The notes: a model not told the origin generated them from the sequence alone. A stretch of 60,887 nt of DNA from Candidatus Polarisedimenticolia bacterium (GCA_035764505.1 DASTZC010000226.1:1-60887); one strand, 5' to 3'; counted from the stretch's first letter, positions 11,567 to 51,782 are shown. Program-made: numbers and translations.

Positions 11567-11661
11567 TTTTCCTCCCTGAAATCAGGGTTGGTCATGCTCC
11601 ATCCTCGTGGGCAGTTTGTGATAGTAATGCATCTGCTGGCAACCGCTCACGGGAGTTCGTG

Positions 11662-30792: not shown

Positions 30793-31324
30793 GGCGACCG
30801 CTCCTTCGACGCCCGCGTGCCACGCCTCGAGGCGGGAAACGGGGACAGCCTTCGCAGGAGGTACAGCAACGACTGTGCCACGCTCATTCCCCCTGCGCTC
30901 GGCGCGGTGCCCCGGCGACCCCGGCTCACGGGCCTTCAGGCGACCCGGTTGCCTCTAAAAATTTCGCAGAGCCTCTCGATTCCCCGCAAATCTTTCGCTC
31001 GCCTCGAGCCCGGTTCCTCGCTCTTGCCCGCGCGCAAACCGGTTTTTGCAGCGTTTCCATGGGGAAGCAGAGATTTCGTTCCTGTGTTTTCGCCGTGCAC
31101 GCTTCTTGCAGTTCTGCTGCGGCGGGCAGGGGCAGGCAACGGCAAAGGGTTGCAGCCGTTCTCTCTCCCGGCGCCCTGGATCCAAGCAAAAACCGCGAAC
31201 GTCTCGCGGGCGACTCCCCCCCAGCAGGGAGGTGATGAAAGGCCGGGGAGCAGAGTGAATGCGGGATTCACCGTGGGATGAACGGACCAACTCCTTCCCT
31301 CAAGGGGAAGCACACGAGGCGCAC

Positions 31325-32617
31325 ATGAGAACGCTAACCAAGATCGTCGCGGTGACGGCCTCCGTGGCGGCGCTCTTCCTGTGGGGGACGCCGGTATGGG
31401 CGTTCCACGACGGTGGCGTCGCCTATTGCACGGGCTGCCATAGCATGCACAGCTCCCCCAGCTCGAGCCACCTGCTGATGAAGAGCGACGCCGGTTCCAC
31501 CTGCCTGCGCTGTCATGAAAGAACCGGCGACGCCGGGCCGAGCAGCTATCACATCAGCACTCCGGCGAGCGAGTTGCTGAATGCGACCGACATTCCCAAG
31601 CAGCGCACACCCGGTGGTGATTTCGGCTGGCTGCGGCAGAACCTCACGGCCCTCTCCACCTTCGGCAGCCCCGTCAACAACCAGGGATTCACTCGCGGTC
31701 ACAACATCATCGCGATGGACAACAGCTACACCTTCGTCGACGGTCCCACCGCTCCGGGCGGGACGATGCCGGCGTCGGAGCTGACCTGCATCAGCTGCCA
31801 TGATCCGCACAGCCGCGCCCGCCGTCTCGACGACGGCAGCGTCGTCTATCCCACCAGCGTCGGCGTCTCCGCGCCGATCGAGGAGTCGGGCTCCTACGGC
31901 TTCGTCCCCGGCCCGGGGATGGCGGCGGGGGTCTACCGCCTGCTCGGCGGATCGGCCTACCAGGCCTTCGACAGCGGCCCGAGCTTCCCCGGAGTGCCGG
32001 CGGCCGTGGTTCCAAACACCTACAATCGGACGGAAGCCGCGACCCAGACCCGGGTGGCGTACGGGCACGGCACCACGAGCGGCTACGTCTCCTGGGGCAA
32101 GTGGTGCTCCACCTGCCACACCGGCATGCACTCCGACACGGCCTCGAACCTCGTCCACGTCGTCGACGCTCAGCTCAACGCGAACGCCGACATCTACAAC
32201 TCCTACATCAAGACCGGCGATCTCACCGGGAGCTCGGCGAACTCTTACACGTCGCTCGTCCCCTTCGCCAAGAACACCAATGACGTGGCGACCCTCGCCC
32301 TCCAGGCCCTCAACGACGATTCCGATCTGACCGGCCCGGCCGGGACGGATCGAATCGGATGCCTCTCCTGCCACCGCGCGCACGCCAGCGGCTGGAGATT
32401 TGGGATGCGCTGGAACAGCGAGTCGGAGTTCCTGACGCTGGCCGACGGAACCGGCGCCCCGGTCTACCCGGGTGTCGATGCCGGCATGGGCAACCAGGGC
32501 CAGTACAACCGCGGCTACACGGTGAACCAGATGAAGGCGGCGTACTACGATCGTCCGCCGACGGTCTTCGCCGCGGCTCAGAGGCAGTACTGCAACAAGT
32601 GCCACGCGAAGGATTGA
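31325..32617 (+). CDS. omcS: hexahaem c-type cytochrome, OmcS-like (cytochrome-filament family)
   Basis: 430 aa with signal peptide ...GTPVWA|FHDGGVAYCTGCHSMH. There are six CxxCH motifs (CTGCH, CLRCH, CISCH, CSTCH, CLSCH, CNKCH). From memory of G. sulfurreducens OmcS, colinear motifs are FHSGGV..C.GCH.MH, GPSSYHIS, TPGGDFGW, YNRTEA.TQTRVAYG, YNSY.K.GDLTG, CLSCHRAHASG and C-terminal CNKCHAKD. Confidence 0.85.
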   Translation: MRTLTKIVAVTASVAALFLWGTPVWAFHDGGVAYCTGCHSMHSSPSSSHLLMKSDAGSTCLRCHERTGDAGPSSYHISTPASELLNATDIPKQRTPGGDFGWLRQNLTALSTFGSPVNNQGFTRGHNIIAMDNSYTFVDGPTAPGGTMPASELTCISCHDPHSRARRLDDGSVVYPTSVGVSAPIEESGSYGFVPGPGMAAGVYRLLGGSAYQAFDSGPSFPGVPAAVVPNTYNRTEAATQTRVAYGHGTTSGYVSWGKWCSTCHTGMHSDTASNLVHVVDAQLNANADIYNSYIKTGDLTGSSANSYTSLVPFAKNTNDVATLALQALNDDSDLTGPAGTDRIGCLSCHRAHASGWRFGMRWNSESEFLTLADGTGAPVYPGVDAGMGNQGQYNRGYTVNQMKAAYYDRPPTVFAAAQRQYCNKCHAKD

Positions 32618-32657
32618 CCGGACGATCCGGGCTCCCGCCCGGATCCCGGAAAGACTC

Positions 32658-32683
32658 AGGGGCCGGCCGCTTGGCCGGCCCCT
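32658..32683 (+). terminator. GC-rich stem-loop (attenuator/terminator-like) after the OmcS-like gene
   Basis: AGGGGCCGGCC-GCTT-GGCCGGCCCCT, a perfect 11-bp stem 40 nt after the stop, followed by TGTCGTGTT (a weak U-tract). Confidence 0.5.
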
Positions 32684-32707
32684 TGTCGTGTTAGGCTGAG
32701 GCCCGAA

Positions 32708-34138
32708 TTGGGCCGATGGCCCGTCCTTCCCGGGGACGATTTGAGAGCGCTGGCAGGAGCTTTGCTCGTTCTCTTCGCAGCGGCCGGTTGTGCCGCTTCG
32801 AGGCTCGTCGACAAGTCGCCGCTTCCGAGGGACGAGGCCCGCATTCATCTCTACCTCCTCCCGCTTCCCCCGGACGCTGCCCGCCTCGAGGTTCTCCTGG
32901 AGGGAGCCTCCGCCGTGCGGGAAGATGGATCGCTGATTCCGCTGCAGCTCGCATTCAATCGCCTCCGAGCGGGAGATCCCGATCGCGAGCGGCGGCTCGC
33001 CTCGGGGCCGGCCCCCCCCGGCCGCTACGCCGGATTGGAGCTGCGGATCGGCTCCGCCGCCCTGACGGGCGAAGGGGGCGGCGCCCTCGGCACCGACGCC
33101 GCCGTCACGGTTCCTTTTCTTTTCACGGTGCAGGAAAAGCAGCCCGTGGTGATTTCGCTGCGTCTCGATCATGCCGGCTCGATGACCGAGGGGATGCGCT
33201 TCCAGCCGTCCTTCGTGGCCGAGGCGCCGCCCCGGCCGCCGTCCGGCCTGATTGCCCTGGCCAGCGCGCGCGGCTCGGACGAGCTGGCGATCTTCGACAA
33301 GGTGTCCGGCCGGATTGCCGGAATCGTCCCGACCGGACGCCGTCCGGGGGGGCTGGCGCTGGATTCCGCCCGGCGGCGCGCCTACGTTGCCGTCACCGGG
33401 GAGGATCGGATTGAAGCGATCGGGCTCCTCGAGCAGGCGGTGCTCGCCCGGCTGAACCTGCGGGTCGGGGACGAGCCGGTGGAGGTCGCGCTGACCCCCG
33501 ACGGCCAGACGCTGGTCACCGCGAATGCCGGGTCCAGCAGCGCCAGCATCGTGGACGCATTGGCGCTCGTGGAGCGCGCGCGCGTTTCGGTCGGCAACGA
33601 GCCGGGATCGGTTCTCCTGGATCGGGCCGGACGGCGCGCCTACCTGTTCAACACCGGCTCGAGCAGCATCACCGTCATCGACGTGGCGGCGCGTGCGGTG
33701 GTGGCCACCCTGGGGACGGAGGCGGGGCCGCTGCGCGGACAGCTCGACCGGGACGGCAGGCGCCTGTACGTCATTCATCGCGCCTCCCCTTACCTGACGA
33801 TTTTCGACACGAACACGCTCGCGGCAGTCGCCCGCACCTACGTCGGTCCCGGGGCGACCGCGCTGAAGGTCGATCCGAAGACCGACCGGATCTACCTGGC
33901 TCGCCGAAAAACGGGGATCCTCGAGATCTTCGATCCTGCCTCCCTCCTGCCCACCGACTCCATCCCGGTGGACGGCGAGATCTCCTTCGTCACCATCGAC
34001 GACGAGGGAAACGCCCTGGTGCTCACCTTGCCGGGGTCCGGGGAGGCGCGCCGGATCGGAATCGCCGGGAAGACGGCCGCCGCGCGCACCGACGTCGGGG
34101 CCGATCCCCGTTACGCGGCCCTGGTCGGAGAAAGGTGA
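32708..34138 (+). CDS. YVTN-type beta-propeller lipoprotein with N-terminal DUF4382-like domain
   Basis: 476-aa track ORF with a TTG start. An alternative TTG at 32741 gives an ideal lipoprotein signal (M)RALAGALLVLFAAAG|C. The propeller blades repeat the patterns P.G.A.D...R.YV.......I.VID. Confidence 0.75.
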   Translation: MGRWPVLPGDDLRALAGALLVLFAAAGCAASRLVDKSPLPRDEARIHLYLLPLPPDAARLEVLLEGASAVREDGSLIPLQLAFNRLRAGDPDRERRLASGPAPPGRYAGLELRIGSAALTGEGGGALGTDAAVTVPFLFTVQEKQPVVISLRLDHAGSMTEGMRFQPSFVAEAPPRPPSGLIALASARGSDELAIFDKVSGRIAGIVPTGRRPGGLALDSARRRAYVAVTGEDRIEAIGLLEQAVLARLNLRVGDEPVEVALTPDGQTLVTANAGSSSASIVDALALVERARVSVGNEPGSVLLDRAGRRAYLFNTGSSSITVIDVAARAVVATLGTEAGPLRGQLDRDGRRLYVIHRASPYLTIFDTNTLAAVARTYVGPGATALKVDPKTDRIYLARRKTGILEIFDPASLLPTDSIPVDGEISFVTIDDEGNALVLTLPGSGEARRIGIAGKTAAARTDVGADPRYAALVGER

Positions 34139-34176
34139 CGGGTGGTGTGGATCGCGGACGCGCGCGCGCGCCGGGA

Positions 34177-36348
34177 ATGCAGCCAAGGCGATTTCCGGCA
34201 TCGTGGCTCGCCGTCCTGGTGGCCGGCTTGCTCATCCCCACCTCCGGGGCGCGCGCCCAGGACGTCTCGGGATACGCGGAGCTGGCGGCCTCGCGGGACC
34301 GCACTCACCTGGTGGATGGAGGGGTCACGGACGTGCTGAGCGACTCGTTCCTGCAGCGCTACAGCGTCGACTTCCTGTGGCGGCTGTATCCGAATCTCCA
34401 GGTAATGGCCGGAGGTCTGTACGAGCGCGACTTCACCGAGGCCTCCCTGAACGACGTCGATCTCGAGACGCTGCAGCGCAAGGTCCGGCCCTACGTCACG
34501 GCCACGCTGCGCACGCCGATCCAGTCGGCCTCGGTGGGCTGGTATCGTAACGAAGACACCTTTCGTTCGGACGGGTCCTCCCTCGGAGCCGTGCAGGAGA
34601 TCGTGAACGCCACCCTGGGATGGAGGCCGGAGCGCTTTCCGCAAACCACCCTGCGGTTCCTGCGCACCCACGACTACGATCCTGACCGCGTGATCCAGGA
34701 CACCAACACCGACCTGCTCGACCTGGTCCTGGAGGACGAGGTGAAGGACTCGGTGCACATCTACTACCGAGGGGCCCTCGAGGAGATTGACGATCGGATC
34801 AACGACTTCCAGCTGAACCGCATCTCCCATTCGGGACGGGTCGACTATGGCGACTCCTGGTGGGACCAGCGCCTCCAGGTGGGCGGGGAATACGACATCC
34901 ACAAGACGTCGGAGGAGGTGACGAGCAGCGGCGGCGGCGAGGTGCTCACGCCGCTGTTTCCCATCGGCGGTCTGTCGGGCCTCGACGATACCCCGGCCGA
35001 CGGCTTCCTGGCGGCCACCCCCGCGCTGATCGACGAGGATCGGATCGCCGGCGTCGGGCTCGACCTCGGGCTGCCGCCGATCGGCGGGGACGTCCGTCCG
35101 CGCAATCTCGGGCTCGACTTCGGGGCGACGACCCGCGTGAACACTCTCTTCGTCTGGGTGGACCGCGACCTCCCGGCCGCGGTCTCCGGCTCGTTCTCCT
35201 GGGAGCTGTACACCAGCGCCGACAACGTGACCTGGCAGCTCGAGCAGACCATCTTTCCGGCGCTGTTCGGGCCGTTCGTGACCCGCTTCGAGATTCGCTT
35301 CACCGCCGTGGACGCCCGCTACGTCAAGCTCGCGGTGCGTCCTCTTGCCGCCAGCGTTCCGAACGCGACCCAGTTTCCCAATATCTTCATCACCGAGCTG
35401 CAGGCCGCCGTCCGGACCGCGGCGGCGGATGCGACCGGCCGGAACGAGCTGACCACACAGCTCCTGACCACGAGCCTGAGGCTCCGGCTGACCGATCGTC
35501 CCGCCGTGACCTACGAGTTCTCCGCCTTCGGTCGGAAGATCGAGGACTTTCCGGTCTACGGCACGATCTCCAACGGATTCTCGCTGCACCACGTCTTCAA
35601 TCCGGTCTACTCGACGATGGCCCGCGTGGCCCGCGAGGACAGCCACGAGTCGGATGGCGACCGCACCACCTACCTCTATACGGCGTCGCTCCGGGCGGTT
35701 CCGCTGTCGACCCTGGAAAGCACGCTGGTGTTCAGCGGCCGATCCTCGGAGCACGAGGGACTGCCAAGCGATTCGGCCGGGGTGCGCTGGACGACGCAGG
35801 CCGAGCTCTACCGGGGAATCAGCGCGCGGCTGGGTCTCGGGCGCTCGGCCGTGCTGACCGAGGACGGAGAGCGCACGGAGATGCGGGAGGTCGACGTCCT
35901 GACGACCCTCGACCCGCACCCGGCGGTGACCCTGAGCCTGCTTGTTCAGGACGACTCGGGGAACCGCCAGGGCGGGCACCTGGTGGAGGAGGTGCCGGTG
36001 GAGCGGCAGGCCGAGGAGGCGGGAGTGACGTTCCGGCCCTTCGCCACCCTCTATATGTTCTTCTCCTACCGGCGGGACCGCGAGAATTCCCTGCCGGTCC
36101 GCTTCACGCGCAGCTCGTCGGCGAGCTGGGCCCCTTTCCCCGACGGGCGGCTCCAGATTCTGTTCCGTTTCGACGACTCGTACCGCTCGGATTTGGAGGC
36201 GGAGAGCCGGATCTTCTCTCCACGTGTGCGCTGGAACGTCACCGACCGCTGGTATCTCGAGGCCGCCTACGAGAGCGCCGAGTTCAATTCCGCCCTGGAC
36301 GATCGCTCGTCCGACATCGTAACGTTCAGCACGCGGATATGGTTCTGA
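34177..36348 (+). CDS. large outer-membrane beta-barrel protein with internal discoidin (F5/8 type C)-like segment
   Basis: 723 aa counted from MQPRRFPASWLAVLVAGLLIPTSGARA|QD. Amphipathic strands run throughout. The central NTLFVWVDRDL...WELYTSADNVTWQLEQ...FTAVDARYVKLAV is discoidin-like. The C-terminal beta-signal ...VTFSTRIWF ends in Phe. Confidence 0.7.
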   Translation: MQPRRFPASWLAVLVAGLLIPTSGARAQDVSGYAELAASRDRTHLVDGGVTDVLSDSFLQRYSVDFLWRLYPNLQVMAGGLYERDFTEASLNDVDLETLQRKVRPYVTATLRTPIQSASVGWYRNEDTFRSDGSSLGAVQEIVNATLGWRPERFPQTTLRFLRTHDYDPDRVIQDTNTDLLDLVLEDEVKDSVHIYYRGALEEIDDRINDFQLNRISHSGRVDYGDSWWDQRLQVGGEYDIHKTSEEVTSSGGGEVLTPLFPIGGLSGLDDTPADGFLAATPALIDEDRIAGVGLDLGLPPIGGDVRPRNLGLDFGATTRVNTLFVWVDRDLPAAVSGSFSWELYTSADNVTWQLEQTIFPALFGPFVTRFEIRFTAVDARYVKLAVRPLAASVPNATQFPNIFITELQAAVRTAAADATGRNELTTQLLTTSLRLRLTDRPAVTYEFSAFGRKIEDFPVYGTISNGFSLHHVFNPVYSTMARVAREDSHESDGDRTTYLYTASLRAVPLSTLESTLVFSGRSSEHEGLPSDSAGVRWTTQAELYRGISARLGLGRSAVLTEDGERTEMREVDVLTTLDPHPAVTLSLLVQDDSGNRQGGHLVEEVPVERQAEEAGVTFRPFATLYMFFSYRRDRENSLPVRFTRSSSASWAPFPDGRLQILFRFDDSYRSDLEAESRIFSPRVRWNVTDRWYLEAAYESAEFNSALDDRSSDIVTFSTRIWF

Positions 36349-36938
36349 GGAGGACCCGCCCCTTGAAGCGCATCTGGATGATGTCCCTGGCCGGCATGCT
36401 GGCGCTGCTTTCGGCGTGCGCCACCTCGCAGGGGGAACGCACGACGTTCCACGACCCGAATATGGACTTCAGCACCCTCCACAAGGTGGCGGTGCTTCCC
36501 TTCGCGAACCTGACGACGAGCGCCAAGGCGGAGGAGCGGGTGCGCGACGTCTTCATGACGATGCTGCAGGCGACCGGCGCGTTCTACGTCCTTCCTCCCG
36601 GCGAGGTGGCCCGGGCCGTCTCCCGGACCGGTCTTGCCAATCCGTCGGCGCCGACCGCCGAGGAGGCGGTGAAGCTCGCGAAGAACCTCGAGGCCGACGC
36701 GATCCTGACCGGCAGCCTGCTGGAATACGGCGAGGTGCGCTCCGCCTCGGCGAGCGCCAACGTGATCTCGGTGAACGTCGCGATGATGGAATCCACCACC
36801 GGCAAGGTCGTCTGGAGCGCTTCCGCCACCGAAGGGGGGATCGGCGCCGGCAAGCGCCTCTTCGGAGGAGGCGGGGAGCCGATGAACGTGGTCACGGCCA
36901 AAGCGGTGGAAGACTTGATCCACGAGCTTTTCAAGTAG
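36339..36938 (+). CDS. TolB-N/LpoB/DUF799-like lipoprotein
   Basis: It sits inside the tail of track ORF 34860..36938. MVLRRTRPLKRIWMMSLAGMLALLSA|C is a lipobox. The core reads VAVLPFANLTTS...ADAILTGSLLEYG...GKVVWSASA. Its start overlaps the barrel gene's stop. Confidence 0.7.
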   Translation: MVLRRTRPLKRIWMMSLAGMLALLSACATSQGERTTFHDPNMDFSTLHKVAVLPFANLTTSAKAEERVRDVFMTMLQATGAFYVLPPGEVARAVSRTGLANPSAPTAEEAVKLAKNLEADAILTGSLLEYGEVRSASASANVISVNVAMMESTTGKVVWSASATEGGIGAGKRLFGGGGEPMNVVTAKAVEDLIHELFK

Positions 36939-36939
36939 A

Positions 36940-38094: not shown

Positions 38095-39794
38095 GCACGC
38101 CAAAGGTCCCGTCGAGAATCCTGCTGTGCGGCCTCGCGGCCTTGATCGGCGCCGCAGCGTCTCCCGCGCGGCTGCCGGTATTCGCCGGCAAGGAGGCGGT
38201 GGCCACCGTGAACGGCGAGCCGGTCACGCTGGAAGATCTGGCTCGCCACGTGGGCAGCCTGCATGAAGGGATCGCCGAGCCGGCGGCCCCGGTGAAGAAG
38301 GCGGATCCCTCCCGGATCCTGCAGCGGATGATCGATGCGCGGCTGGTGGCGCAGGAAGCCAGGAGGATCGGCCTCGATCAGCTCCCCGACATCAAGAAGC
38401 GCCTCGATGACGACCGCCTCGATCTGGTGAAGAGCCTCGTGGTGCGCGACGCGGTGAAGGATGTCCCGCCCCCCTCCCCCGCCGAGATCGACCAGCGCGC
38501 CCGCGAGTCGGTCCGCGATCTGCGGGTCGAGTCGGTGCTCTTCACGCGCGAGGAGGACGCCCGCGCCTTCGTCGCCGCGGTACGCGGCGGAGGCGACTTC
38601 GGCGCCCTGGCGCGCGCCGCCTTCTCCGCCGGCAAGGCCCGGGAGCCGGGGCCCGCGGCCTCCATGAAGCCCGATGCCTTGCGCCCCGAGGTGGCCGATC
38701 CGATCCTGGCGCTGAAGCCCGGCGGCGTGACCGAGCCGCTCCGCATCACGGAGGGGTTCACCGTCGCGCACCTCCTCGAGATCCGGTATCCCGTGGAGGC
38801 CGCGGACCGCGCCGCCGCCGAGCGCGACCTCCTGGAGCCGCGGCGCCAGGCGCGCCTCGAGCAGGCGAAGGTTCGGATGCGCCGCGATTATTTCCAGGTC
38901 GACCAGGGCCTGCTCGCAAAACTGGATTATGAGGCCGCCTCACCCGGCCTCGCTGCCCTGCGCAAAGACACCCGGGTGCTGGCGCGCGTCAAGGGAGATC
39001 CGCCGGTCCTGGTGAAGGACCTCACGGCGGAAGTGGAGAAGAACTTCTACCATGGCGTGCAGGAGGCCATCGAGCGCAAGCGGGTCAACGAGAGTCTTCC
39101 CCGGCTGCTGGATCGGGTCCTGATGGAGCGCGCCACGCTGCTGGAGGCGAAGCGGCTCAAGATCGAGAGCACCGCCGAGTTTCGCGACACGCTGCGCGAG
39201 CGCGAGGACGAGCGCCTGTTCGAGGCCTTCCTGCAGAAGGTGGTTCATCCGGACATCCATCTTACCGACGACGAGCTGCAGCGCTACTATGCCGCCCATG
39301 CGAAGGACTATGCATCGCCCGAGATGATGCGCCTGGAGGGGATCGCTTTCGGCCGGCGGGAAGATGCGCAGTCGGCCTTCCAGAAGCTCCAGAAGGGGGC
39401 CGATATGAAGTGGATGCAGGCGAACGCGCCGGGCAGGGCGGATCGGGAGCATTTTCCCGAGATGGCCGATCTGGGGAACGGCCTCGTGGTCACCAGCACC
39501 TTTCCCGAGCCCATCCGCAACGCGGTCGCCGGCGCCACGGGCGGCGACCTGCGGCTGGCCTCCTCCCCGGCCGGGCCGCACTACGTCCTCGCCATCCGCC
39601 AGGTGGTTCCGGCCTCGCCGCGCCCCTTCGACAGTGTGCGCAGCGACATCGCCTCGCTTCTTTACAGGCAGAAACGGCAGGCGGCGCTCGACGAATGGAC
39701 CGCGAAGCTGCGGGCCGCCTCCGTGGTGAAGACCTTCGCCGACGGCAAGACGCTCGCCTCGCTTCTGCAGGAAGCTTCGGGGAAGCGCAGGTGA
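38091..39794 (+). CDS. SurA-like peptidyl-prolyl cis-trans isomerase (parvulin/PpiC-type), periplasmic
   Basis: 567 aa with a signal peptide. The SurA-N-like start is VATVNGEPVTLEDL. The parvulin-like segments end in GGVTEPLRITEGFTVAHLLEIR and SSPAGPHYVLAIRQV. It has an ATGA overlap upstream and a GTGA overlap downstream. Confidence 0.8.
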   Translation: MSTPKVPSRILLCGLAALIGAAASPARLPVFAGKEAVATVNGEPVTLEDLARHVGSLHEGIAEPAAPVKKADPSRILQRMIDARLVAQEARRIGLDQLPDIKKRLDDDRLDLVKSLVVRDAVKDVPPPSPAEIDQRARESVRDLRVESVLFTREEDARAFVAAVRGGGDFGALARAAFSAGKAREPGPAASMKPDALRPEVADPILALKPGGVTEPLRITEGFTVAHLLEIRYPVEAADRAAAERDLLEPRRQARLEQAKVRMRRDYFQVDQGLLAKLDYEAASPGLAALRKDTRVLARVKGDPPVLVKDLTAEVEKNFYHGVQEAIERKRVNESLPRLLDRVLMERATLLEAKRLKIESTAEFRDTLREREDERLFEAFLQKVVHPDIHLTDDELQRYYAAHAKDYASPEMMRLEGIAFGRREDAQSAFQKLQKGADMKWMQANAPGRADREHFPEMADLGNGLVVTSTFPEPIRNAVAGATGGDLRLASSPAGPHYVLAIRQVVPASPRPFDSVRSDIASLLYRQKRQAALDEWTAKLRAASVVKTFADGKTLASLLQEASGKRR

Positions 39795-41788
39795 AAGGGG
39801 CTTTCCCGGACAGGCGCCGGGCGGTGCGCCGCGCCCGACTCGGGTGGCTGCCGCTTTTCCTCCTGGCGGCTTGCATCTCCTCCGCCGCCGCCGAGCCGCG
39901 CGGCGGCCCCACCCGGCAGTTCCAGAAAAAAGGGTGTCTCGACTGCCACAAGCAGTTCGCCGATCGCATCCGCTCCCTGCCGGACCTCCATCCCGGCGTC
40001 AAGAACGGAGACTGCGAGCAGTGCCACCTGCGGCACGGGATCGTGCCGAAGCTTCTTCTGAAGAAGGAGCAGGGTCAGCTCTGTCTCGAGTGCCACAACC
40101 GCGACAAGATCGGCCTGGACGCCGCCCACGTCCACGCGCCGGTGAAGTCGGGCCAGTGCACCGGCTGCCACGATCCGCACGGATCGGCCGCGCCGCGGCT
40201 GCTGAAGGCCGAAGGTCCGCAGGCCTGCTTCTCCTGCCACGACCGCAAGCCGTTCGAGCGGCGCTTCGTGCACGAGGTCCTGCAAAAGCAGGGGTGCGTC
40301 GCCTGCCACCAGGCGCACGGCTCGGCCCAGCCGGCGCTTCTGGTGAAGGGCGAGGCGCCCCTCTGCCTCTCATGCCACGACGCCACGCGCGACAGCTTCC
40401 GCAAGGCGCACGGCGGCTACCCGGTGGAAAAGGCGCGCTGTGCATCCTGCCACGACCCTCATTCTTCCGCGGAGAAGGGGCTGATGAAGCCGAACGTGCA
40501 TGCCCCGGCCGCGGCGGCGGACTGCGGCTCCTGCCACGCCAAGCCCGGATCGGAGAAGCCCTTCGCGCTCCTCGACGAGGCGGGGAAATTGTGCCGCACC
40601 TGCCACGATGACGAGTCCCTCAAGCAGGGGGGCAAGGACGAGCATGCTCCCTTCGCCACCGGCGACTGCCTGACCTGCCACGACCCGCACGCCTCGCAGC
40701 AGGCGTCCCTGCTGATCGAGCCTCCCAAATCGCTGTGCGTGGAGTGCCACTCCGAGAAGGGGCGCGCTCCCGCCCATCCGCACGCGGCGATGAGCGCGGA
40801 GAAGGCATGCCTCTCCTGCCACCGGCCGCATGCCGGCACGGGGAAGGCGCTGCTCGCCTCCCCGGTGCCGGGGCTGTGTGAAGGCTGTCACGCCGGGGTG
40901 AAGAAGGAGAAGGAGGCGAAGGTGCTCCACGCCCCCTTCGACTCGGGCGACTGCGTGGCGTGCCACGATCCGCACGGTTCCGATGTCCCCGCCATCCTGC
41001 GCGAGCGGGCCGACGCGGTCTGCTTCAGCTGCCACACCGACGCCCGCGCCGATTTCCAGAAGGCGGAAGTGCATCGTCCCGTCCTGACCGGCCAGTGCGT
41101 CGCCTGCCACTTCCCCCACGGCTCGGCGCAGAAGGCGCTGCTGCGCGCCCCGGCGGAGACGCTGTGCGCGCAATGCCATTCCGAGCTGACGCAGCAGGAT
41201 GCCAAGGGGACGGCCCACGCGCCCGTGGCGGCCGGCGACTGCCTCACCTGCCACGATCCACACGCTTCGGACACCCCCGGCATGCTGGCGAAGAGCCAGG
41301 TGTCGTTGTGCGCCGACTGCCACGGCGACATCACCGAGACCAAGGAAAAGACCGTCAGCCGCCATGCTCCGGCGCAGTCGGGAACGTGCACCGCCTGCCA
41401 CAACCCGCACCGCTCCTCCCTGTCGGCGCTCCTGAAGGTCCAGAGCCCCGATCTCTGCCTCTCGTGCCACCAGAATCTGAAGGAGGCGCTGGCGAAGCAG
41501 CATGCGCACCCGCCCGCGGCGCGCGACTGCCTGCGCTGCCACGTTCCTCACGCCTCGCCGCAAAAAGCCCTTCTGTCGCGGCCCACCGCGCAGCTCTGCT
41601 CCGAATGCCACGCCACCGGAGAGGAGGGCTTCCGCAAGGCGCATCTCGGGATCGATCCCGGCGTGATGAATTGCGTGAGTTGCCACACTCCCCACGCGTC
41701 GGAGGACCCGAAGCTGTTCAAGGAGCAGACGCATGCTCCATTCGCCGGACATTCGTGCGAGGAATGCCATGTGGTCCCCGCCCACTGA
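39791..41788 (+). CDS. multihaem c-type cytochrome with 26 CxxCH motifs (possible lipoprotein)
   Basis: 665 aa from a GTG start that overlaps the PPIase stop. The signal has LFLLAA|C. I counted 26 CxxCH motifs in the track translation, alternating H.P....C..CH.PH and LC..CH contexts. Confidence 0.9.
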   Translation: MKGAFPDRRRAVRRARLGWLPLFLLAACISSAAAEPRGGPTRQFQKKGCLDCHKQFADRIRSLPDLHPGVKNGDCEQCHLRHGIVPKLLLKKEQGQLCLECHNRDKIGLDAAHVHAPVKSGQCTGCHDPHGSAAPRLLKAEGPQACFSCHDRKPFERRFVHEVLQKQGCVACHQAHGSAQPALLVKGEAPLCLSCHDATRDSFRKAHGGYPVEKARCASCHDPHSSAEKGLMKPNVHAPAAAADCGSCHAKPGSEKPFALLDEAGKLCRTCHDDESLKQGGKDEHAPFATGDCLTCHDPHASQQASLLIEPPKSLCVECHSEKGRAPAHPHAAMSAEKACLSCHRPHAGTGKALLASPVPGLCEGCHAGVKKEKEAKVLHAPFDSGDCVACHDPHGSDVPAILRERADAVCFSCHTDARADFQKAEVHRPVLTGQCVACHFPHGSAQKALLRAPAETLCAQCHSELTQQDAKGTAHAPVAAGDCLTCHDPHASDTPGMLAKSQVSLCADCHGDITETKEKTVSRHAPAQSGTCTACHNPHRSSLSALLKVQSPDLCLSCHQNLKEALAKQHAHPPAARDCLRCHVPHASPQKALLSRPTAQLCSECHATGEEGFRKAHLGIDPGVMNCVSCHTPHASEDPKLFKEQTHAPFAGHSCEECHVVPAH

Positions 41789-43076
41789 CCGGGTCGCGCC
41801 CCGGGCGCTGCTCGGGCTGCTCGCCGCGCTGGCGCTCGCCGCCACGCCGGCGCACTCCGCCACGCCGGCGGCTTCCTCGGCCGACAAGTTTCATCTCAAG
41901 CCCGGGGCGACCGGGAAAGTCTGCCTCGGGTGCCACGCGGATCTGGCGGAAGCCGCGGCCCTCCCGGTCGTGCACGCGCCGGTGAAGGCGGGAGACTGCA
42001 TCGCCTGCCACAATCCGCATGCCTCGTCGCACGGCAAGCTGCTGGAGGCGAGCGGCGCGGCGCTGTGCGCGCGCTGCCATCCGACGATCGCGCCTCCCGG
42101 CGCCGCGCATCTGCACGCGCCGGTCGCGGCCGGCGAATGCGCCCGCTGCCACGATCCCCACGGCAGCCGGAATGCGAGTCTGCTGCGGGCGGTGGGCAAC
42201 GAGACCTGCGCCAGCTGTCATGCCGCGCTCGTCGGCCATGTGACCCACGCGAAGTTCGCGCACCCTCCCGCGGCGAAGAACTGCCTCGTCTGCCACGATC
42301 CGCACGGCGGACGGTCGGGAGAGTTCCTCCTGAAGAAAGACGTCCCCGAGCTGTGCACCGGCTGCCACACCGCCAGCGCGCCGGAGTTCGTCAAGCGCCA
42401 CGTCGGCTACCCGGTGGCCAAGGCGCGCTGCACCTCCTGCCATGATCCGCACGGCTCCGACCAGGCGGGGGGGCTCTGGGCGAAGGTCCATCCTCCGGCC
42501 GCCAACCGGATGTGCGCCCAGTGCCATCTCGACGCGACCGGCCCCAATCCCACCGGCCTGCGAAAAACCGGCTCCGAGCTGTGCCGCTCCTGCCATGGCG
42601 AGGTGCTCCGGCAGATCAGCACGCGCAGCCATGTGCACCTGCCGGTCGCCGACCGGGTCGCCTGCCTGAACTGCCACTCGCCGCACGCCTCCGCGCAGGA
42701 CGCGCTGCTGCGACAGCCGGCGAAGCAGCTGTGCGGCCGCTGTCACGCAGCCACCATCGCCCGGCAGGAGACGTCCAAGACGAAACATCCTCCGGTCGAA
42801 GAGGGGATGTGCGGGAGCTGTCACGAGGTGCACGCTTCCGATCACCGCTTCCTGCTGAACGACGCGAACGTGATGGAGGTGTGCGGCGCCTGCCACGAGT
42901 GGAAGAACCATTCGACCCATCCGATCGGCGAGAAGGCGGTCGACCCTCGCAACCCGAACCTGACCGTCGATTGCCTGAGCTGCCATCGAACCCACGGCGC
43001 CGCCCATCAGGGCCTCGCCCACTTCGATCGGGATTCCGAGCTGTGCGTCCAATGCCATCAGGGGGTGCGTCGATGA
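41769..43076 (+). CDS. multihaem c-type cytochrome with 16 CxxCH motifs
   Basis: 435 aa counted from MWSPPTDRVAPRALLGLLAALALAATPAHS|A. It has 16 CxxCH motifs with the same alternating module as the 26-haem protein. Its start overlaps the previous gene's 3' end by 20 nt. Confidence 0.88.
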   Translation: MWSPPTDRVAPRALLGLLAALALAATPAHSATPAASSADKFHLKPGATGKVCLGCHADLAEAAALPVVHAPVKAGDCIACHNPHASSHGKLLEASGAALCARCHPTIAPPGAAHLHAPVAAGECARCHDPHGSRNASLLRAVGNETCASCHAALVGHVTHAKFAHPPAAKNCLVCHDPHGGRSGEFLLKKDVPELCTGCHTASAPEFVKRHVGYPVAKARCTSCHDPHGSDQAGGLWAKVHPPAANRMCAQCHLDATGPNPTGLRKTGSELCRSCHGEVLRQISTRSHVHLPVADRVACLNCHSPHASAQDALLRQPAKQLCGRCHAATIARQETSKTKHPPVEEGMCGSCHEVHASDHRFLLNDANVMEVCGACHEWKNHSTHPIGEKAVDPRNPNLTVDCLSCHRTHGAAHQGLAHFDRDSELCVQCHQGVRR

Positions 43077-43981
43077 GACGCAGAAACGCCACCGCCCGGC
43101 TCCTGCGCGCCGTCTTGTGCCTGGGACTCGCAGGCGGATTGGCCCTGGCCGCTTCCGGGGTGCGGCTCAGGCCGCTGCCGCCGATCTACGTCGATGCCGC
43201 GGGAGCCCCGCTCCGCCAGCCGCAGGGAGTCGGCTGCGGAGCATCGACCCTGGTGGTGGCCGACACCGGCAACAGCCGCCTCGTCCCCTACTCGATCGCC
43301 GGCGAGCAGATCACGGCCGGCAAGGAGATCCGCATCCCGGAGCTCGTTTCGCCGTCGCGGGTCCAGGTGGCGGAAGACGGAACCCTCTTCGCTCTCGACG
43401 GCAAGAGCCACAAGATCTTCCGGCTGTCGACGGCCGGGGCCTTGCAGGGCACGGTCCCGGTCCCGGCTGAACCGGCGGCCGGCGCTCCCTTCGTTCAGAG
43501 CTTCCGGCGCGCTGCTTCGGGGGACCTTTATCTTCTCGACGTGGGAACGGGCCGTGTCGTGGTGCTCGCCCCCGACGGCGCGCTCCGCCGGACGATTCCG
43601 CTGCCCGCGCGCGGCGGCTCCTTCACGGATCTTGCAGTCGATTCGGCCGGGACGGTTTTCGTCCTCGACAGCGCGGCACGCCGGCTGCTGGCAGCCCGCG
43701 CCACGGACACCGGACTCGCGCCCCTGGCCGACGGCATGAAGGACGAGGTGGAATTTCCCATCGCCCTGGCGGTTCACGACGGCAAGATCTTCGTCGTCGA
43801 TCAGTCAGGAGGCGGAATCGTCATCCTGGGGCCGGACGGCTCGTTCCACGGGCATCAATCGGGCATGGGCTGGAACGTCGGGTCGCTGCGTTACCCGAGC
43901 GATCTCTGCGCCCTCTCCGGCCTTCTCTTCGTGGCCGACCGCGAGAATCAGCGCATTCAGATTTTTTCCCTCGCCGATTGA
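43073..43981 (+). CDS. NHL-repeat beta-propeller protein, secreted
   Basis: 302 aa with an ATGA overlap onto the cytochrome stop and signal peptide MRRRNATARLLRAVLCLGLAGGLALAA. NHL blades are VADTGNSRLVPY, YLLDVGTGRVVVL, FVLDSAARRLL, IFVVDQSGGGIVIL and LFVADRENQRIQIF. Confidence 0.85.
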   Translation: MRRRNATARLLRAVLCLGLAGGLALAASGVRLRPLPPIYVDAAGAPLRQPQGVGCGASTLVVADTGNSRLVPYSIAGEQITAGKEIRIPELVSPSRVQVAEDGTLFALDGKSHKIFRLSTAGALQGTVPVPAEPAAGAPFVQSFRRAASGDLYLLDVGTGRVVVLAPDGALRRTIPLPARGGSFTDLAVDSAGTVFVLDSAARRLLAARATDTGLAPLADGMKDEVEFPIALAVHDGKIFVVDQSGGGIVILGPDGSFHGHQSGMGWNVGSLRYPSDLCALSGLLFVADRENQRIQIFSLAD

Positions 43982-44062
43982 GACTTCCTCGAGGGATTTT
44001 GCGCCTTCGTGCCATTCTCAATCTGGCACATCGCTTGCTCGAGTAGTACCAAGAGGCTCGAA

Positions 44063-45040
44063 ATGCGAAAAAACTTCCTCGTCTCGACCACCGTCCTGAT
44101 CGTCACCGGCATTTTTTGCGCCATGTCTCAGGCAGCCTCGCCGACCTCATTTATGTATCTCCTTTCCGACTTCACCGGAGTGATTCCTTACAGCGACGTG
44201 AAGCTCCACGCCGACAGGGCTCATGACGAGATCTATGCGATCCTCGGGAACACCATTCGGACCTTCAACGCCGCCGGGATGGAGATTTACAGCTTCACGA
44301 TCGACCCTGCGCTGGGCACGGTTTACGACCTGGTGGTCGAGGAAGACGGCGGGCTTCTTCTCCTGGTCCTCGACTTGCAGCCGGGGGAGCCTCTCCGGTG
44401 GTTCATTCTCCGCTGCGATTACCGCGGCCGGCCCCAGGCGGAGCTGCCGCTCACCGGGCTGCCGCCCGAGCTGGTCTCCTTCCGGCCGAATGCCATGTTC
44501 CTGGAGACCGACCGACTGCTTCTCGTCGCCAAGGCCGACCTCGAGGTGGTGTCGTTCGACCGCGGCGGGCGGTTCCGCGAGCGGATCGACCTGGCGGCGC
44601 GCTGCAAGGTCGCGGATTTCCGGCGAGCCGGCCACGAGATCGCGGGGTTCGACGTCGCGGAGAACGGCGATCTCCTGTTCACCGTCCCGACCCTCTTCCG
44701 TGCCTTCGTCGTTCCACGGCAGGGAGAGTTCCGCTCCTTCGGACATCCGGGCTCGACTTCTGGCTCTTTCGGGGTCGTGGACGGAATCGTGGCCGACGAT
44801 CAGGGAGGCGCGCTGGTGGCCGACAAGAATCGCGGCGTGGTGATGCGGTTCGACAGGAATCTGGAGTTCGTCGCGGAATTCGGAGATGCGGGAGAAGGTC
44901 CTGCCTTACTGATCCGTCCCGCCGAGCTCGCCTTCGGAAGTCATTCCACGCTCTACGTCACCCAGGCGCGGGATCGGGGGGTGGCGGTATTCCGCCTCGA
45001 GCCGCCTGCCGAGGCGGGCGGCACCGCAGCCACTCCTTAG
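44063..45040 (+). CDS. NHL-like beta-propeller protein, secreted
   Basis: 325 aa counted from MRKNFLVSTTVLIVTGIFCAMSQA|A. Blades include LVADKNRGVVMRFD and LYVTQARDRGVAVFRL. The leader region is AT-richer. Confidence 0.7.
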   Translation: MRKNFLVSTTVLIVTGIFCAMSQAASPTSFMYLLSDFTGVIPYSDVKLHADRAHDEIYAILGNTIRTFNAAGMEIYSFTIDPALGTVYDLVVEEDGGLLLLVLDLQPGEPLRWFILRCDYRGRPQAELPLTGLPPELVSFRPNAMFLETDRLLLVAKADLEVVSFDRGGRFRERIDLAARCKVADFRRAGHEIAGFDVAENGDLLFTVPTLFRAFVVPRQGEFRSFGHPGSTSGSFGVVDGIVADDQGGALVADKNRGVVMRFDRNLEFVAEFGDAGEGPALLIRPAELAFGSHSTLYVTQARDRGVAVFRLEPPAEAGGTAATP

Positions 45041-51700: not shown

Positions 51701-51782
51701 GCCCCGCCCCCGTTCACCGACCGCTCCCACTGGCTTCCGGCGCGTCGTGCGCCTCCGGTGCTCCCCGTTTCCTGGTTGCGCA

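What the first reader, a model, noticed from the sequence alone, without database searches (positions are those of the whole stretch)
31325..45040. Complete OmcS-type cytochrome-nanowire locus (hexahaem OmcS homologue plus nine companion genes) in a probable acidobacterium
Ten co-directional genes are packed with 4-nt start/stop overlaps. In order they are:
- an OmcS-like hexahaem cytochrome
- a YVTN propeller lipoprotein
- a 723-aa outer-membrane barrel
- a TolB-N/LpoB-like lipoprotein
- a protein with two such modules
- a SurA/parvulin PPIase
- a 26-haem cytochrome
- a 16-haem cytochrome
- two NHL propellers

From memory, this is essentially the gene order of the Geobacter sulfurreducens omcS neighbourhood (about GSU2504 down to GSU2492: OmcS/OmcT, lipoproteins and hypotheticals, a PpiC PPIase, a 26-haem cytochrome, a second multihaem cytochrome, two NHL proteins). 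The filament literature has flagged those companion genes as conserved next to filament cytochromes, but their function has never been demonstrated.

Finding the whole set conserved in a distant phylum argues that the nine companions plus the filament subunit form one functional system. That system would be an export, assembly and charging machine for an extracellular haem wire. It also implies long-range extracellular electron transfer in this lineage.
Basis: partly seen in the sequence, partly recalled or inferred. Interest (0 to 1): 0.92.

Follow-up and report, generated by a model that had tools for sequence, protein, structure and literature searches.

The report
Acidobacterial OmcS nanowire assembly gene cluster
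This is a real, complete copy of the already published "omcS-companion" gene cluster, which builds conductive cytochrome filaments in Geobacter, found here in a probable acidobacterium in a simpler one-subunit form; it is a new member of a known system, not a new kind of system.

Summary
Window 31325-45040 (+) carries ten co-directional genes for exported proteins, flanked on both sides by unrelated minus-strand genes.

- **Gene 1** is a full-length OmcS-family hexahaem cytochrome (PDB OmcS E=2e-92; AF2 model TM 0.79-0.83 to 6EF8). All six CXXCH motifs and all six family-invariant distal histidines are present.
- **Genes 2-9** match Geobacter OscD-OscK in the same order: propeller lipoprotein, about 28-strand outer-membrane barrel, PelC/GNA1162-like lipoprotein, its two-module relative, SurA-type PPIase, 26-haem cytochrome, 16-haem cytochrome, NHL propeller.
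- **Gene 10** matches the NHL gene that normally lies upstream of omcS.

A scan seeded with OscF (a companion, not the cytochrome) found the hexahaem gene upstream in 62 of 64 informative loci. These loci span Acidobacteriota, Nitrospirota, Thermodesulfobacteriota, Myxococcota and Rokubacteria.

Shen et al. 2025 named this osc cluster and, as citing papers summarise it, proposed folding, secretion and morphology roles for its companions.

Points specific to this window:
- It has a single hexahaem, which falls in neither the OmcS/OmcT clade nor the OscC clade.
- It has no OscB and no adjacent regulator pair.
- The NHL gene has moved to the end of the cluster, preceded by an exact sigma-54 promoter consensus.
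- A strong hairpin follows the subunit gene.

Filament formation is inferred, not shown.

The parts
31325..32617 (+). g1: OmcS-family hexahaem cytochrome, 430 aa, the presumptive filament subunit. The signal peptide is cleaved before F27.
   Evidence: PDB OmcS 6ef8/6nef, E=2.2e-92; query residues 27-430 align to mature OmcS 1-407. AF2 model against 6ef8_A: E=1.2e-34, TM 0.79/0.83. Six CXXCH motifs plus H2, H16, H110, H147, H257 and H335 are all present.
32618..32687 (+). Two GC-rich stem-loops in the 90-nt gap after the subunit gene. Candidate attenuator or mRNA-stabilising element.
   Evidence: MFE -58.6 kcal/mol, z=-4.08, 0 of 200 shuffles fold as well. The same feature follows hexahaem genes in 64 loci (median z=-3.0), whereas z is near 0 after OscD, E, G and H.
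32708..34138 (+). g2: OscD homologue, a lipoprotein with a YncE/YVTN-type beta-propeller. The start codon is uncertain.
   Evidence: 44% identity to Geobacter OscD, E=4e-123. PF21783 and TIGR02276. Lipobox AAAGC.
34177..36348 (+). g3: OscE homologue, a large outer-membrane beta-barrel of about 28 strands by my reading of the model's strand list, with an inserted beta-sandwich domain at about residues 255-415. An alternative GTG start lies at 34135.
   Evidence: 34% identity to Geobacter OscE, E=2e-123. AF2 pLDDT 89.1. The best PDB fold hit is MtrB 6r2q_B, followed by TonB-dependent receptors, ushers and LptD, all at low TM. The protein ends in ...RIWF.
36339..36938 (+). g4: OscF homologue, a PelC/GNA1162/LpoB-fold lipoprotein.
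   Evidence: 58% identity to Geobacter OscF. PF05643. PDB sequence hits to GNA1162 4hrv and PelC 9h80, plus 5t10/5t11, which are listed as uncharacterised and which I recall as PelC. Lipobox LLSAC.
36940..38094 (+). g5: OscG homologue, made of two tandem OscF-like modules.
   Evidence: 37% identity to Geobacter OscG, E=4e-69. hhalign of each half against OscF: 96.4% and 99.6%.
38091..39794 (+). g6: OscH homologue, a SurA-like periplasmic chaperone with parvulin PPIase domains.
   Evidence: PF13145 at E=1e-22, with weaker SurA_N and Rotamase matches. A syntenic homologue was found in 58 of 64 loci.
39791..41788 (+). g7: OscI homologue, a 26-haem cytochrome built from 13 paired-CXXCH repeats of the DmsE/MtrA type.
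   Evidence: 26 CXXCH. PF09699 in 13 copies; TIGR03508 scores 309 bits against a cutoff of 192. The count of 26 is kept in 46 of 54 homologues.
41769..43076 (+). g8: OscJ homologue, a 16-haem cytochrome. An alternative ATG start lies at 41733.
   Evidence: 16 CXXCH. PF09699 in 8 copies. The count of 16 is kept in 52 of 58 homologues.
43073..43981 (+). g9: NHL-repeat beta-propeller. It is the last gene of the eight-gene block, so OscK by position.
   Evidence: PF01436, E=1.5e-17. It directly follows the 16-haem gene in 46 of 51 loci.
44024..44039 (+). Exact sigma-54 -24/-12 consensus, TGGCACATCGCTTGCT, 24 nt upstream of the g10 ATG.
   Evidence: Only 2 exact matches occur in the window, against 0.02 expected. 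In related loci, 17 of 23 strict matches lie just upstream of the g10-like gene.
44063..45040 (+). g10: NHL-repeat propeller, homologue of the 327-aa gene that lies directly upstream of omcS in Geobacter. Here it has moved to the 3' end of the cluster.
   Evidence: 38% identity to the gene upstream of omcS in L005, E=6e-65. PDB NHL domains at E=2e-16. It lies upstream of the hexahaem gene in 43 of 47 loci; it lies downstream only in this window, its closest relatives L012, L013 and L015, and Anaeromyxobacter L057.

Best explanation
The locus is a single-subunit version of the osc (omcS-companion) system, a dedicated envelope machine that makes and wires an extracellular OmcS-type haem filament.

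**Proposed mechanism.** Steps marked [inferred] rest on homology to Geobacter or on analogy.
1. All ten products carry signal peptides or lipoboxes, so all leave the cytoplasm [shown].
2. The hexahaem g1 is matured in the periplasm and kept competent by the SurA-like PPIase g6 (OscH) [inferred].
3. g1 crosses the outer membrane through, or is mounted on, the roughly 28-strand barrel g3 (OscE). A periplasmic collar of PelC-fold lipoprotein modules, g4 (one module) plus g5 (two modules), sits beneath the barrel, by analogy with PelC-PelB [inferred].
4. Outside the cell, subunits polymerise head to tail. The conserved His16 on the flexible N-terminal arm ligates haem 5 of the neighbouring subunit, as I recall from the OmcS structure papers [inferred; the residues are shown to be present].
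5. The propellers g2 (OscD), g9 and g10 modulate filament morphology or anchoring [inferred].
6. The 26-haem and 16-haem MtrA-like rods g7 and g8 carry electrons across the periplasm to the filament base [inferred].
7. The strong hairpin after g1 sets a high ratio of subunit to machinery, as with major-pilin genes [inferred].
For: **Gene 1 belongs to the OmcS family**
- Full-length match to OmcS, E=2e-92, with the mature N-terminus FH.GG conserved.
- Fold match at TM 0.79-0.83, and OmcS is the only significant PDB hit.
- The 12 haem-ligand positions are invariant across 93 family members and all are present here.

**The companions match Geobacter**
- g2-g5 and g10 match G. sulfurreducens OscD, OscE, OscF, OscG and the gene upstream of omcS, at E=1e-65 to 1e-123.
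- g6-g9 match the rest of the block in Geomonas and about 50 other loci, in the same order.

**Co-occurrence, tested from the companion side**
- 80 loci seeded by OscF were examined.
- Among those with enough flank, these were present: hexahaem 62/64, OscD 67/68, OscE 76/76, OscG 66/67, OscH 58/64, OscI 48/61, OscJ 41/49.

**Individual parts**
- OscE is a confident barrel model.
- OscF has PelC and GNA1162 as its PDB relatives.
- OscG is a tandem of OscF-like modules.
- The hairpin after g1 has z=-4.08. Across loci, hairpins follow hexahaem genes but not the other cluster genes. In Geobacter they follow omcS and omcT but not oscC.

**Published work.** Shen et al. 2025, as summarised in PMC13194489, PMC12977616 and bioRxiv 10.1101/2025.10.22.684050.
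Against: - No filament has been seen from this lineage.
- In G. sulfurreducens only OmcS, not OmcT, OscC or OmcJ, is known to polymerise. PMC12977616 warns that sequence alone cannot identify true nanowire subunits.
- g1 lies in neither the OmcS/OmcT clade nor the OscC clade of an unbootstrapped NJ tree, and it occupies the OscC position.
- His16 is also conserved in the paralogues not known to polymerise, so it does not discriminate.
- OscB and the histidine kinase/sigma-54 activator pair found beside many clusters are absent here.
- No sigma-54 site is recognisable upstream of g1, although close relatives have one.
- The secretion-pore role of OscE/F/G is described in later papers as proposed or hypothetical.
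Confidence: 0.72

Rival explanations
1. Porin-cytochrome conduit rather than a filament machine. The OscE barrel sheathes the MtrA-like 26-haem rod, as MtrB sheathes MtrA, and passes electrons to a surface-bound hexahaem that stays monomeric or forms only short oligomers. The lipoproteins and the PPIase would serve only to assemble this complex.
For: - The best PDB fold hit of the OscE model is MtrB (6r2q_B, E=4e-10).
- OscI scores above the curated cutoff of the DmsE/MtrA decahaem family (309 bits against 192).
- The haem counts of OscI (26) and OscJ (16) are almost invariant, as expected for rods that must span a fixed distance.
- Most OmcS paralogues are not known to polymerise.
Against: - The TM-score to MtrB is only 0.34-0.37, and TonB-dependent receptors, ushers and LptD score nearly as well. 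The hit therefore says 'large barrel', not 'MtrB'.
- There is no MtrC/OmcA-type surface decahaem.
- As summarised by citing papers, the Geobacter work links OscE/F/G and OscH to OmcS secretion and folding.
- OscI and OscJ are the least constant members of the block: they are absent or inverted in 13 of 61 loci. The barrel and the hexahaem persist together without them, for example in L017, L024 and L025.
- This reading is compatible with the main explanation as an added role and does not exclude it.
Confidence: 0.18
2. Purely periplasmic respiratory or electron-storage module with no extracellular product. The cytochromes would form a periplasmic electron sink, and the barrel would be an unrelated porin.
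For: - 48 haem-binding motifs in three proteins could act as a capacitor.
- Cellular location was not tested directly.
Against: - The barrel, two outer-membrane-type lipoproteins and a SurA-like chaperone are fixed partners of the hexahaem in 58-76 of 64-76 loci across at least five phyla.
- The only solved relative of g1 is an extracellular filament.
- The subunit-gene hairpin pattern resembles that of structural-subunit genes.
Confidence: 0.05
3. Silent or decaying copy acquired by horizontal transfer. The cluster is intact in sequence but poorly expressed, because it lost its regulator pair and the promoter upstream of the subunit gene.
For: - No histidine kinase/sigma-54 activator pair lies next to the cluster.
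- No sigma-54 site lies upstream of g1, although L010, L011 and L015 have GGCAC-N5-TTGCT there.
- Phyla are intermixed in the hexahaem tree, which is consistent with horizontal transfer.
Against: - All ten ORFs are intact, with full-length homology and conserved ligand positions.
- GC3 is 0.82-0.88 in the eight cluster ORFs that passed the filter, the same as in the flanking genes.
- The closest relatives share the rearranged order with g10 at the end (L012, L013, L015), so the arrangement is inherited and maintained.
- The regulators may simply lie elsewhere in the genome.
Confidence: 0.05

Closest known systems
osc (omcS-companion) cluster of Geobacter sulfurreducens (GSU2504-GSU2493; Shen et al. 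2025, Cell Chem Biol 32:239)
   Same: - An OmcS-family hexahaem is followed by OscD (propeller), OscE (725-aa barrel), OscF (199 aa), OscG (two modules), OscH (PPIase), OscI (26 haems), OscJ (16 haems in this window and in 52 of 58 homologues) and an NHL protein, in the same order.
- The protein sizes are almost the same.
- Identity to the Geobacter proteins (g1-g5, g10) is 34-58%; g6-g9 match the Geomonas loci at 34-50%.
   Different: - There is one hexahaem instead of three (OmcS, OmcT, OscC).
- The 1017-aa spermine-synthase-like OscB is absent.
- No adjacent histidine kinase/sigma-54 activator pair is present.
- The NHL gene that precedes omcS in Geobacter lies at the 3' end here, preceded by an exact sigma-54 promoter consensus.
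- The host is Acidobacteriota rather than Desulfuromonadia.
[quoted passage not shown]
   Same: A single hexahaem lies directly upstream of OscD-OscK.
   Different: - The window's hexahaem does not group with the OscC clade in my NJ tree.
- Unlike Geobacter oscC, it is followed by the strong hairpin typical of omcS and omcT.
OmcE nanowire gene cluster (bioRxiv 10.1101/2025.10.22.684050)
   Same: The parts list is analogous: two multihaem cytochromes, two beta-propeller lipoproteins, the filament subunit and a large beta-barrel.
   Different: The subunit is an unrelated tetrahaem. Homology of the accessory proteins was not tested here.
MtrCAB porin-cytochrome conduit (PDB 6R2Q)
   Same: A large outer-membrane barrel is encoded alongside a periplasmic cytochrome of the MtrA/DmsE repeat type.
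   Different: - The barrel has about 28 strands and an inserted beta-sandwich domain.
- TM-score to MtrB is only 0.34-0.37.
- The rod cytochromes have 26 and 16 haems rather than 10.
- There is no MtrC-type surface cytochrome.
PelC-PelB exopolysaccharide export (PDB 9H80, and 5T10/5T11 as I recall them)
   Same: OscF and OscG share the PelC/GNA1162/LpoB lipoprotein fold at sequence level and are encoded next to an outer-membrane barrel.
   Different: - The similarity is weak (E=1e-3 to 5e-3).
- The cargo is a protein, not a polysaccharide.
- No ring assembly was tested.

Membership tests
OmcS cytochrome family (hexahaem, fold of PDB 6EF8) | Full-length sequence homology to OmcS | tested here: met
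   phmmer E=2.2e-92; query 27-430 aligns to mature OmcS 1-407. 45% identity by BLASTP.
OmcS cytochrome family (hexahaem, fold of PDB 6EF8) | Six CXXCH motifs and six distal histidines for bis-His ligation. These include His16, which I recall as the ligand that crosses to the neighbouring subunit. | tested here: met
   All 12 His and 12 Cys positions are present. They are at least 99% conserved in 93 family members.
OmcS cytochrome family (hexahaem, fold of PDB 6EF8) | Same three-dimensional fold | tested here: met
   AF2 model (pLDDT 78.7) against 6ef8_A: E=1.2e-34, TM 0.79/0.83, rmsd 3.6 A. It is the only significant hit.
OmcS sensu stricto (orthologue of GSU2504, the proven filament former) | Groups with OmcS to the exclusion of OmcT, OscC and OmcJ | tested here: not met
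   Identity is 45%, 45% and 43% to OmcS, OmcT and OscC. In the NJ tree it sits in an Acidobacteriota clade, outside both the OmcS/OmcT group and the OscC group. The tree has no bootstrap support values.
OmcS sensu stricto (orthologue of GSU2504, the proven filament former) | Polymerises into an extracellular filament | not testable with these tools
   This needs cryo-EM, haem staining, or a haem-aware multimer model.
osc (omcS-companion) assembly cluster | The eight-gene block OscD-OscK lies directly downstream of an OmcS-family gene | tested here: met
   g2-g5 match Geobacter OscD-G directly. g6-g9 match the block in Geomonas and other loci, in the same order.
osc (omcS-companion) assembly cluster | Companions co-occur with the hexahaem across genomes | tested here: met
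   In the OscF-seeded scan the hexahaem lay upstream in 62 of 64 loci. Other members were present in 41/49 to 76/76.
osc (omcS-companion) assembly cluster | OscB (spermine-synthase-like, about 1000 aa) lies within the cluster | tested here: not met
   It is absent from 31325-45040. The only match is weak: 26% over 162 aa, to a 708-aa Spermine_synth protein at 57975-60101 (-). OscB is also missing or displaced in many other loci, so I treat it as optional.
osc (omcS-companion) assembly cluster | Companions are required for folding and secretion of the filament subunit | not testable with these tools
   This is reported for Geobacter by Shen et al. 2025, which I know only through citing papers.
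Mtr/Pcc porin-cytochrome conduit | An outer-membrane barrel that sheathes a periplasmic MtrA-type cytochrome, plus a surface decahaem | tested here: inconclusive
   The barrel's best fold hit is MtrB, but at TM 0.34-0.37. OscI passes the TIGR03508 cutoff. No MtrC/OmcA homologue is present.

The most novel reading that the evidence does not exclude
The single hexahaem next to OscD may be the ancestral nanowire subunit, with Geobacter's OmcS/OmcT as later duplicates. On that reading, osc clusters like this one would give many soil and sediment Acidobacteriota cytochrome nanowires. Acidobacteriota were the largest group among the 80 best OscF hits in GTDB species representatives: about 29 of 80, by my hand-labelling of the record titles.

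In addition, the OscE barrel together with the 26-haem and 16-haem rods may form an MtrAB-like feed-through. The nearly invariant haem counts would then act as molecular rulers spanning the periplasm to charge the filament base.
Probability: 0.3. Interest if true: 0.6.

Novelty: new member of a known kind. Interest (0 to 1): 0.35.

Why it matters
If acidobacterial osc clusters are active, a very abundant soil phylum would have a capacity for long-range extracellular electron transfer that is now credited mainly to Geobacter-like bacteria. That would bear on iron, carbon and methane cycling.

The compact ten-gene, one-subunit form has no OmcT, OscC or OscB paralogues to confound phenotypes. It is a natural minimal system for heterologous reconstitution, and for asking which hexahaems polymerise. 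Recent papers describe that question as open.

The basic discovery, that these companions form one conserved assembly system, is already published.

Tried and rejected
1. **Full text of Shen et al. 2025.** It is not held under its PMC id or PubMed id. I relied on citing papers, so I could not check whether Acidobacteriota clusters were already listed there.
2. **Literature search for 'osc cluster' and 'OmcS-companion'.** It found nothing. A search for OscG/OscH returned mostly rice-gene papers and one relevant paper.
3. **The 36416-36943 ORF as gene 4.** Rejected: its translation is Arg/Gly-rich and out of frame. The real gene is 36339-36938.
4. **A sigma-54 promoter upstream of g1.** The only candidate, 31095-31110, lacks the GG dinucleotide and does not align with the sites in L010 and L011.
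5. **Sigma-70 promoter and terminator consensus scans.** They were uninformative: 0 promoters, and terminators at the chance level. They also missed the hairpins after g1.
6. **The 1030-aa ORF at 16687-19779 as a displaced OscB.** No match was found.
7. **A lipobox in the 26-haem protein (LLAAC).** It is not conserved (7 of 57 homologues), so I do not call it a lipoprotein.
8. **g9 and g10 as recent duplicates.** There is no significant pairwise similarity.
9. **Sequence search of g3 against the PDB.** No hits. Only the fold search was informative.

Full report
**1. What is in the sequence**

Window 31325-45040 carries ten co-directional genes on the + strand. Minus-strand genes of unrelated function flank the block on both sides:
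- Upstream: a radical-SAM gene, a 2-oxoacid:ferredoxin oxidoreductase, alanine dehydrogenase and an acetyl-CoA hydrolase.
- Downstream: an ADOP/MacB-type permease, an Rrf2 regulator, a GNAT and an SDR.

The block is therefore discrete. GC3 is 0.82-0.88 in the eight cluster ORFs that passed my filter, the same as in the flanks.

- g1 has six CXXCH motifs.
- g2 is a YncE/YVTN propeller with a lipobox.
- g3 is 723 aa with no Pfam family.
- g4 is a GNA1162/LpoB/TolB_N-like lipoprotein.
- g5 has two such modules (hhalign against OscF: 96.4% and 99.6%).
- g6 is a SurA_N plus parvulin protein.
- g7 and g8 are 26-haem and 16-haem cytochromes built from paired-CXXCH repeats.
- g9 and g10 are NHL propellers.

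Every product begins with a signal peptide or a lipobox.

There are three small corrections:
- Only three or four of the nine junctions are 4-nt overlaps.
- The correct frame of gene 4 is 36339-36938, not the ORF at 36416-36943.
- The start codons of g2, g3 and g8 are ambiguous.

**2. Is gene 1 an OmcS homologue?**

Yes, at family level, on three lines of evidence.
- *Sequence.* Against all PDB sequences the only real hit is OmcS (6EF8/6NEF), at E=2.2e-92. It aligns from the first to the last residue of the mature protein, and the mature N-terminus FHxGG is conserved, which places the signal-peptide cleavage before F27.
- *Fold.* An AF2 model built on 43 homologues (pLDDT 78.7) matches 6ef8_A at TM 0.79/0.83, and nothing else in the PDB matches. 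The only low-confidence stretch is residues 20-52. This includes the arm bearing His16, which in the filament inserts into the neighbouring subunit as I recall the OmcS structure papers.
- *Ligands.* In an alignment of 93 family members, the six CXXCH motifs and six further histidines (mature OmcS positions 2, 16, 110, 147, 257, 335) are at least 99% conserved. All are present here.

The family is very large.

**3. Is this the Geobacter gene set?**

I retrieved the G. sulfurreducens subsp. ethanolicus locus (L005). Its order is:
- a 327-aa gene
- OmcS
- OmcT
- a 1017-aa spermine-synthase-like protein (OscB by position)
- OscC
- OscD (492 aa)
- OscE (725 aa)
- OscF (199 aa)
- OscG (392 aa)

BLASTP against the window proteins gives:

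| Window gene | Geobacter match | Identity |
|---|---|---|
| g2 | OscD | 44% |
| g3 | OscE | 34% |
| g4 | OscF | 58% |
| g5 | OscG | 37% |
| g10 | the 327-aa gene upstream of omcS | 38% |

E-values range from 1e-65 to 1e-123. Gene names follow PMC13194489 and PMC12977616. Those papers give omcS=GSU2504, omcT=GSU2503, oscC=GSU2501, oscI=GSU2495 and oscJ=GSU2494, and an eight-gene block GSU2500-GSU2493. The remaining tag-to-name assignments are my interpolation.

**4. Neighbourhood survey, seeded from a companion**

It found 120 relatives in GTDB species representatives. The best 80 loci come from:
- Acidobacteriota (about 29 by my hand-labelling of the record titles, including Polarisedimenticolia, Thermoanaerobaculia and Terriglobia)
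- Nitrospirota
- Thermodesulfobacteriota (Geomonas, Geobacter, Desulfobulbaceae, Desulfocapsa, Malonomonas)
- Anaeromyxobacter
- Rokubacteria
- Schekmanbacteria
- Deferrimicrobium
- Syntrophorhabdales

tblastn with the window proteins gave the following counts among loci with enough flank:

| Cluster member | Found / informative loci |
|---|---|
| OmcS-family gene upstream | 62/64 |
| OscD | 67/68 |
| OscE | 76/76 |
| OscG | 66/67 |
| OscH | 58/64 |
| OscI | 48/61 |
| OscJ | 41/49 |
| NHL gene directly after OscJ | 46/51 |

Haem counts are almost fixed: 26 in 46 of 54 OscI-like ORFs, and 16 in 52 of 58 OscJ-like ORFs. A soil lineage labelled Sulfotelmatobacter carries the same order and appears in 212 blocks of the metagenome index.

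**5. What is already known**

The key papers are these.
- *Shen et al. [quoted passage not shown] I could not obtain the paper.
- *PMC13194489* summarises it as proposing OscH for folding, OscE/F/G for secretion and OscD for morphology.
- *bioRxiv 10.1101/2025.10.22.684050* describes the resulting porin-like mounting model, and notes that large beta-barrels occur in most OmcE and OmcS regions.
- *PMC12977616* shows that every Geobacter genome with the eight-gene block has a GSU2501-like hexahaem directly upstream, but not always a true omcS. It stresses that only OmcS is known to polymerise.
- *PMC12307469*, a 2025 review, still calls secretion and anchoring speculative.

The idea of one conserved system is published.

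**6. What is particular to this locus**

*(a) One hexahaem of ambiguous orthology.* It is 45%, 45% and 43% identical to OmcS, OmcT and OscC. In an NJ tree it falls in an Acidobacteriota clade of OscD-adjacent copies, outside both the OmcS/OmcT group and the OscC group (no bootstrap, so this is weak).

*(b) A hairpin after the subunit gene.* The 90-nt gap after g1 folds into two strong GC hairpins (-58.6 kcal/mol, z=-4.08, 0 of 200 shuffles).
- Across 64 loci, the 110 nt after the OscD-adjacent hexahaem gene are unusually structured: median z=-3.0, and 52% fall below -3.
- Controls taken after OscD, E, G and H have medians near 0, with at most 2% below -3.
- In multi-copy loci the hairpins follow the distal copies. 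In Geobacter, omcS has z=-2.8 and omcT z=-3.2, while oscC has none (z=+1.1).
- By this criterion g1 behaves like a major-subunit gene, although it occupies the OscC position. This is an inference. The cross-locus shuffles were mononucleotide.

*(c) The NHL gene has moved.* The g10-type NHL gene precedes the hexahaem in 43 of 47 loci. Here it lies at the 3' end. The other loci where it lies downstream are the closest relatives L012, L013 and L015, and Anaeromyxobacter L057. It is preceded by an exact sigma-54 consensus at 44024-44039.
- The window holds only two exact matches, against 0.02 expected.
- In related loci, 17 of 23 strict matches lie just upstream of the g10-like gene, and 4 lie upstream of hexahaem genes.
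- This fits the histidine kinase/sigma-54 activator pairs seen beside many clusters. The window has no such pair nearby.

*(d) OscB is absent*.

**7. Structure of the companions**

*OscE (g3).* It models confidently (pLDDT 89.1, pTM 0.66) as an all-beta protein. By my reading of the strand list it has about 12 long strands, an inserted beta-sandwich at about residues 255-415, and then about 17 more strands, so roughly 28 strands in all. Foldseek ranks MtrB first (6r2q_B, E=4e-10), followed by TonB-dependent receptors, PapC/FimD ushers and LptD, all at TM 0.2-0.37. This supports 'very large outer-membrane barrel'. It does not by itself decide between a secretion pore and a cytochrome sheath.

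*OscF (g4).* Its PDB sequence relatives are GNA1162, PelC and LpoB. I recall PelC as forming a ring under the PelB barrel, which suggests a periplasmic collar made of OscF plus the two-module OscG.

**8. Taxonomy**

Several lines point to Acidobacteriota:
- The nearest relatives of g1, g3 and g4 are Acidobacteriota/Polarisedimenticolia MAGs.
- The flanking radical-SAM gene has a 68% homologue beside the cluster in a Polarisedimenticolia MAG (L015), and the OFOR genes have 46-51% homologues in L016.
- The downstream permease is an ADOP-family duplicated permease (903 bits). I recall this family as an acidobacterial expansion.

'Probable acidobacterium' is reasonable. The cluster genes alone would be weak evidence, because phyla are intermixed in the hexahaem tree.

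**9. Verdict**

The locus is a new member, in a compact one-subunit arrangement, of a published system. It is not a new kind of system.

The points that remain open also remain open for the field:
- whether non-OmcS family members polymerise
- what the barrel does
- what the 26-haem and 16-haem proteins do

My confidence is about 0.9 that this is an osc cluster. It is about 0.6-0.7 that it makes an extracellular filament in this organism.

Noticed in passing
window 29653-30792 (-) and 30865-30880 (-): The gene divergent from g1 is a TIGR04053 radical SAM/SPASM protein (448 bits against a cutoff of 395). Its next-best family is the haem b synthase AhbD (E=3e-95). It sits about 73 nt behind the window's only other exact sigma-54 consensus. 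A 68% homologue lies beside the osc cluster in the Polarisedimenticolia MAG L015. It may be a co-regulated haem-supply or maturation accessory for a cluster with 48 haem-binding motifs.
   Followed up: partly
window 44024-44039 (+); loci L014-L083: A sigma-54 -24/-12 promoter consensus directly upstream of the g10-type NHL gene is conserved across phyla: 17 of 23 strict matches in 1.46 Mb of osc loci. Histidine kinase and sigma-54 activator genes often lie upstream. This implies RpoN-dependent control of the system.
   Followed up: partly
window 32618-32687 (+) and the 110 nt after hexahaem genes in 64 loci: Strong stem-loops follow OmcS-family genes (median z=-3.0) but not the other osc genes. 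In Geobacter they follow omcS and omcT but not oscC. This may mark which paralogue is the abundant structural subunit.
   Followed up: yes
window 45087-47492 (-): An ADOP-family duplicated permease (TIGR03434, 903 bits). I recall this family as characteristically expanded in Acidobacteria, so it is a useful taxonomic hint for the window.
   Followed up: no
window 57975-60101 (-): A 708-aa protein with a spermine/spermidine-synthase domain. It matches Geobacter OscB weakly (26% over 162 aa) and lies 13 kb downstream of the cluster. Whether it substitutes for OscB is unknown.
   Followed up: partly
window 49437-54369 (-): Two BcrAD/BadFG-type ATPase genes plus two HGD-D genes, which together form a benzoyl-CoA reductase or 2-hydroxyacyl-CoA dehydratase-type set. 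An enoyl-CoA hydratase and a zinc alcohol dehydrogenase lie nearby. This suggests a strictly anaerobic metabolism.
   Followed up: no
window 11554-13068 (+): A glycoside hydrolase family 47 (alpha-mannosidase-type) gene, E=4e-124. As I recall, this family is mainly eukaryotic.
   Followed up: no
loci L011-L090: Haem counts of the two large cytochromes are nearly invariant across phyla: 26 in 46 of 54, and 16 in 52 of 58. One locus has a 42-haem ORF, apparently a fusion of the two. This suggests a constraint on the length of the haem rods.
   Followed up: partly
window 34177-36348, residues about 255-415 of g3: The OscE barrel carries an inserted beta-sandwich domain. It has a weak match to the F5/8 type C (NedA-like galactose-binding) domain, E=0.004. 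This region holds most of the invariant residues in the OscE alignment. It could be a plug or a filament-docking domain.
   Followed up: no
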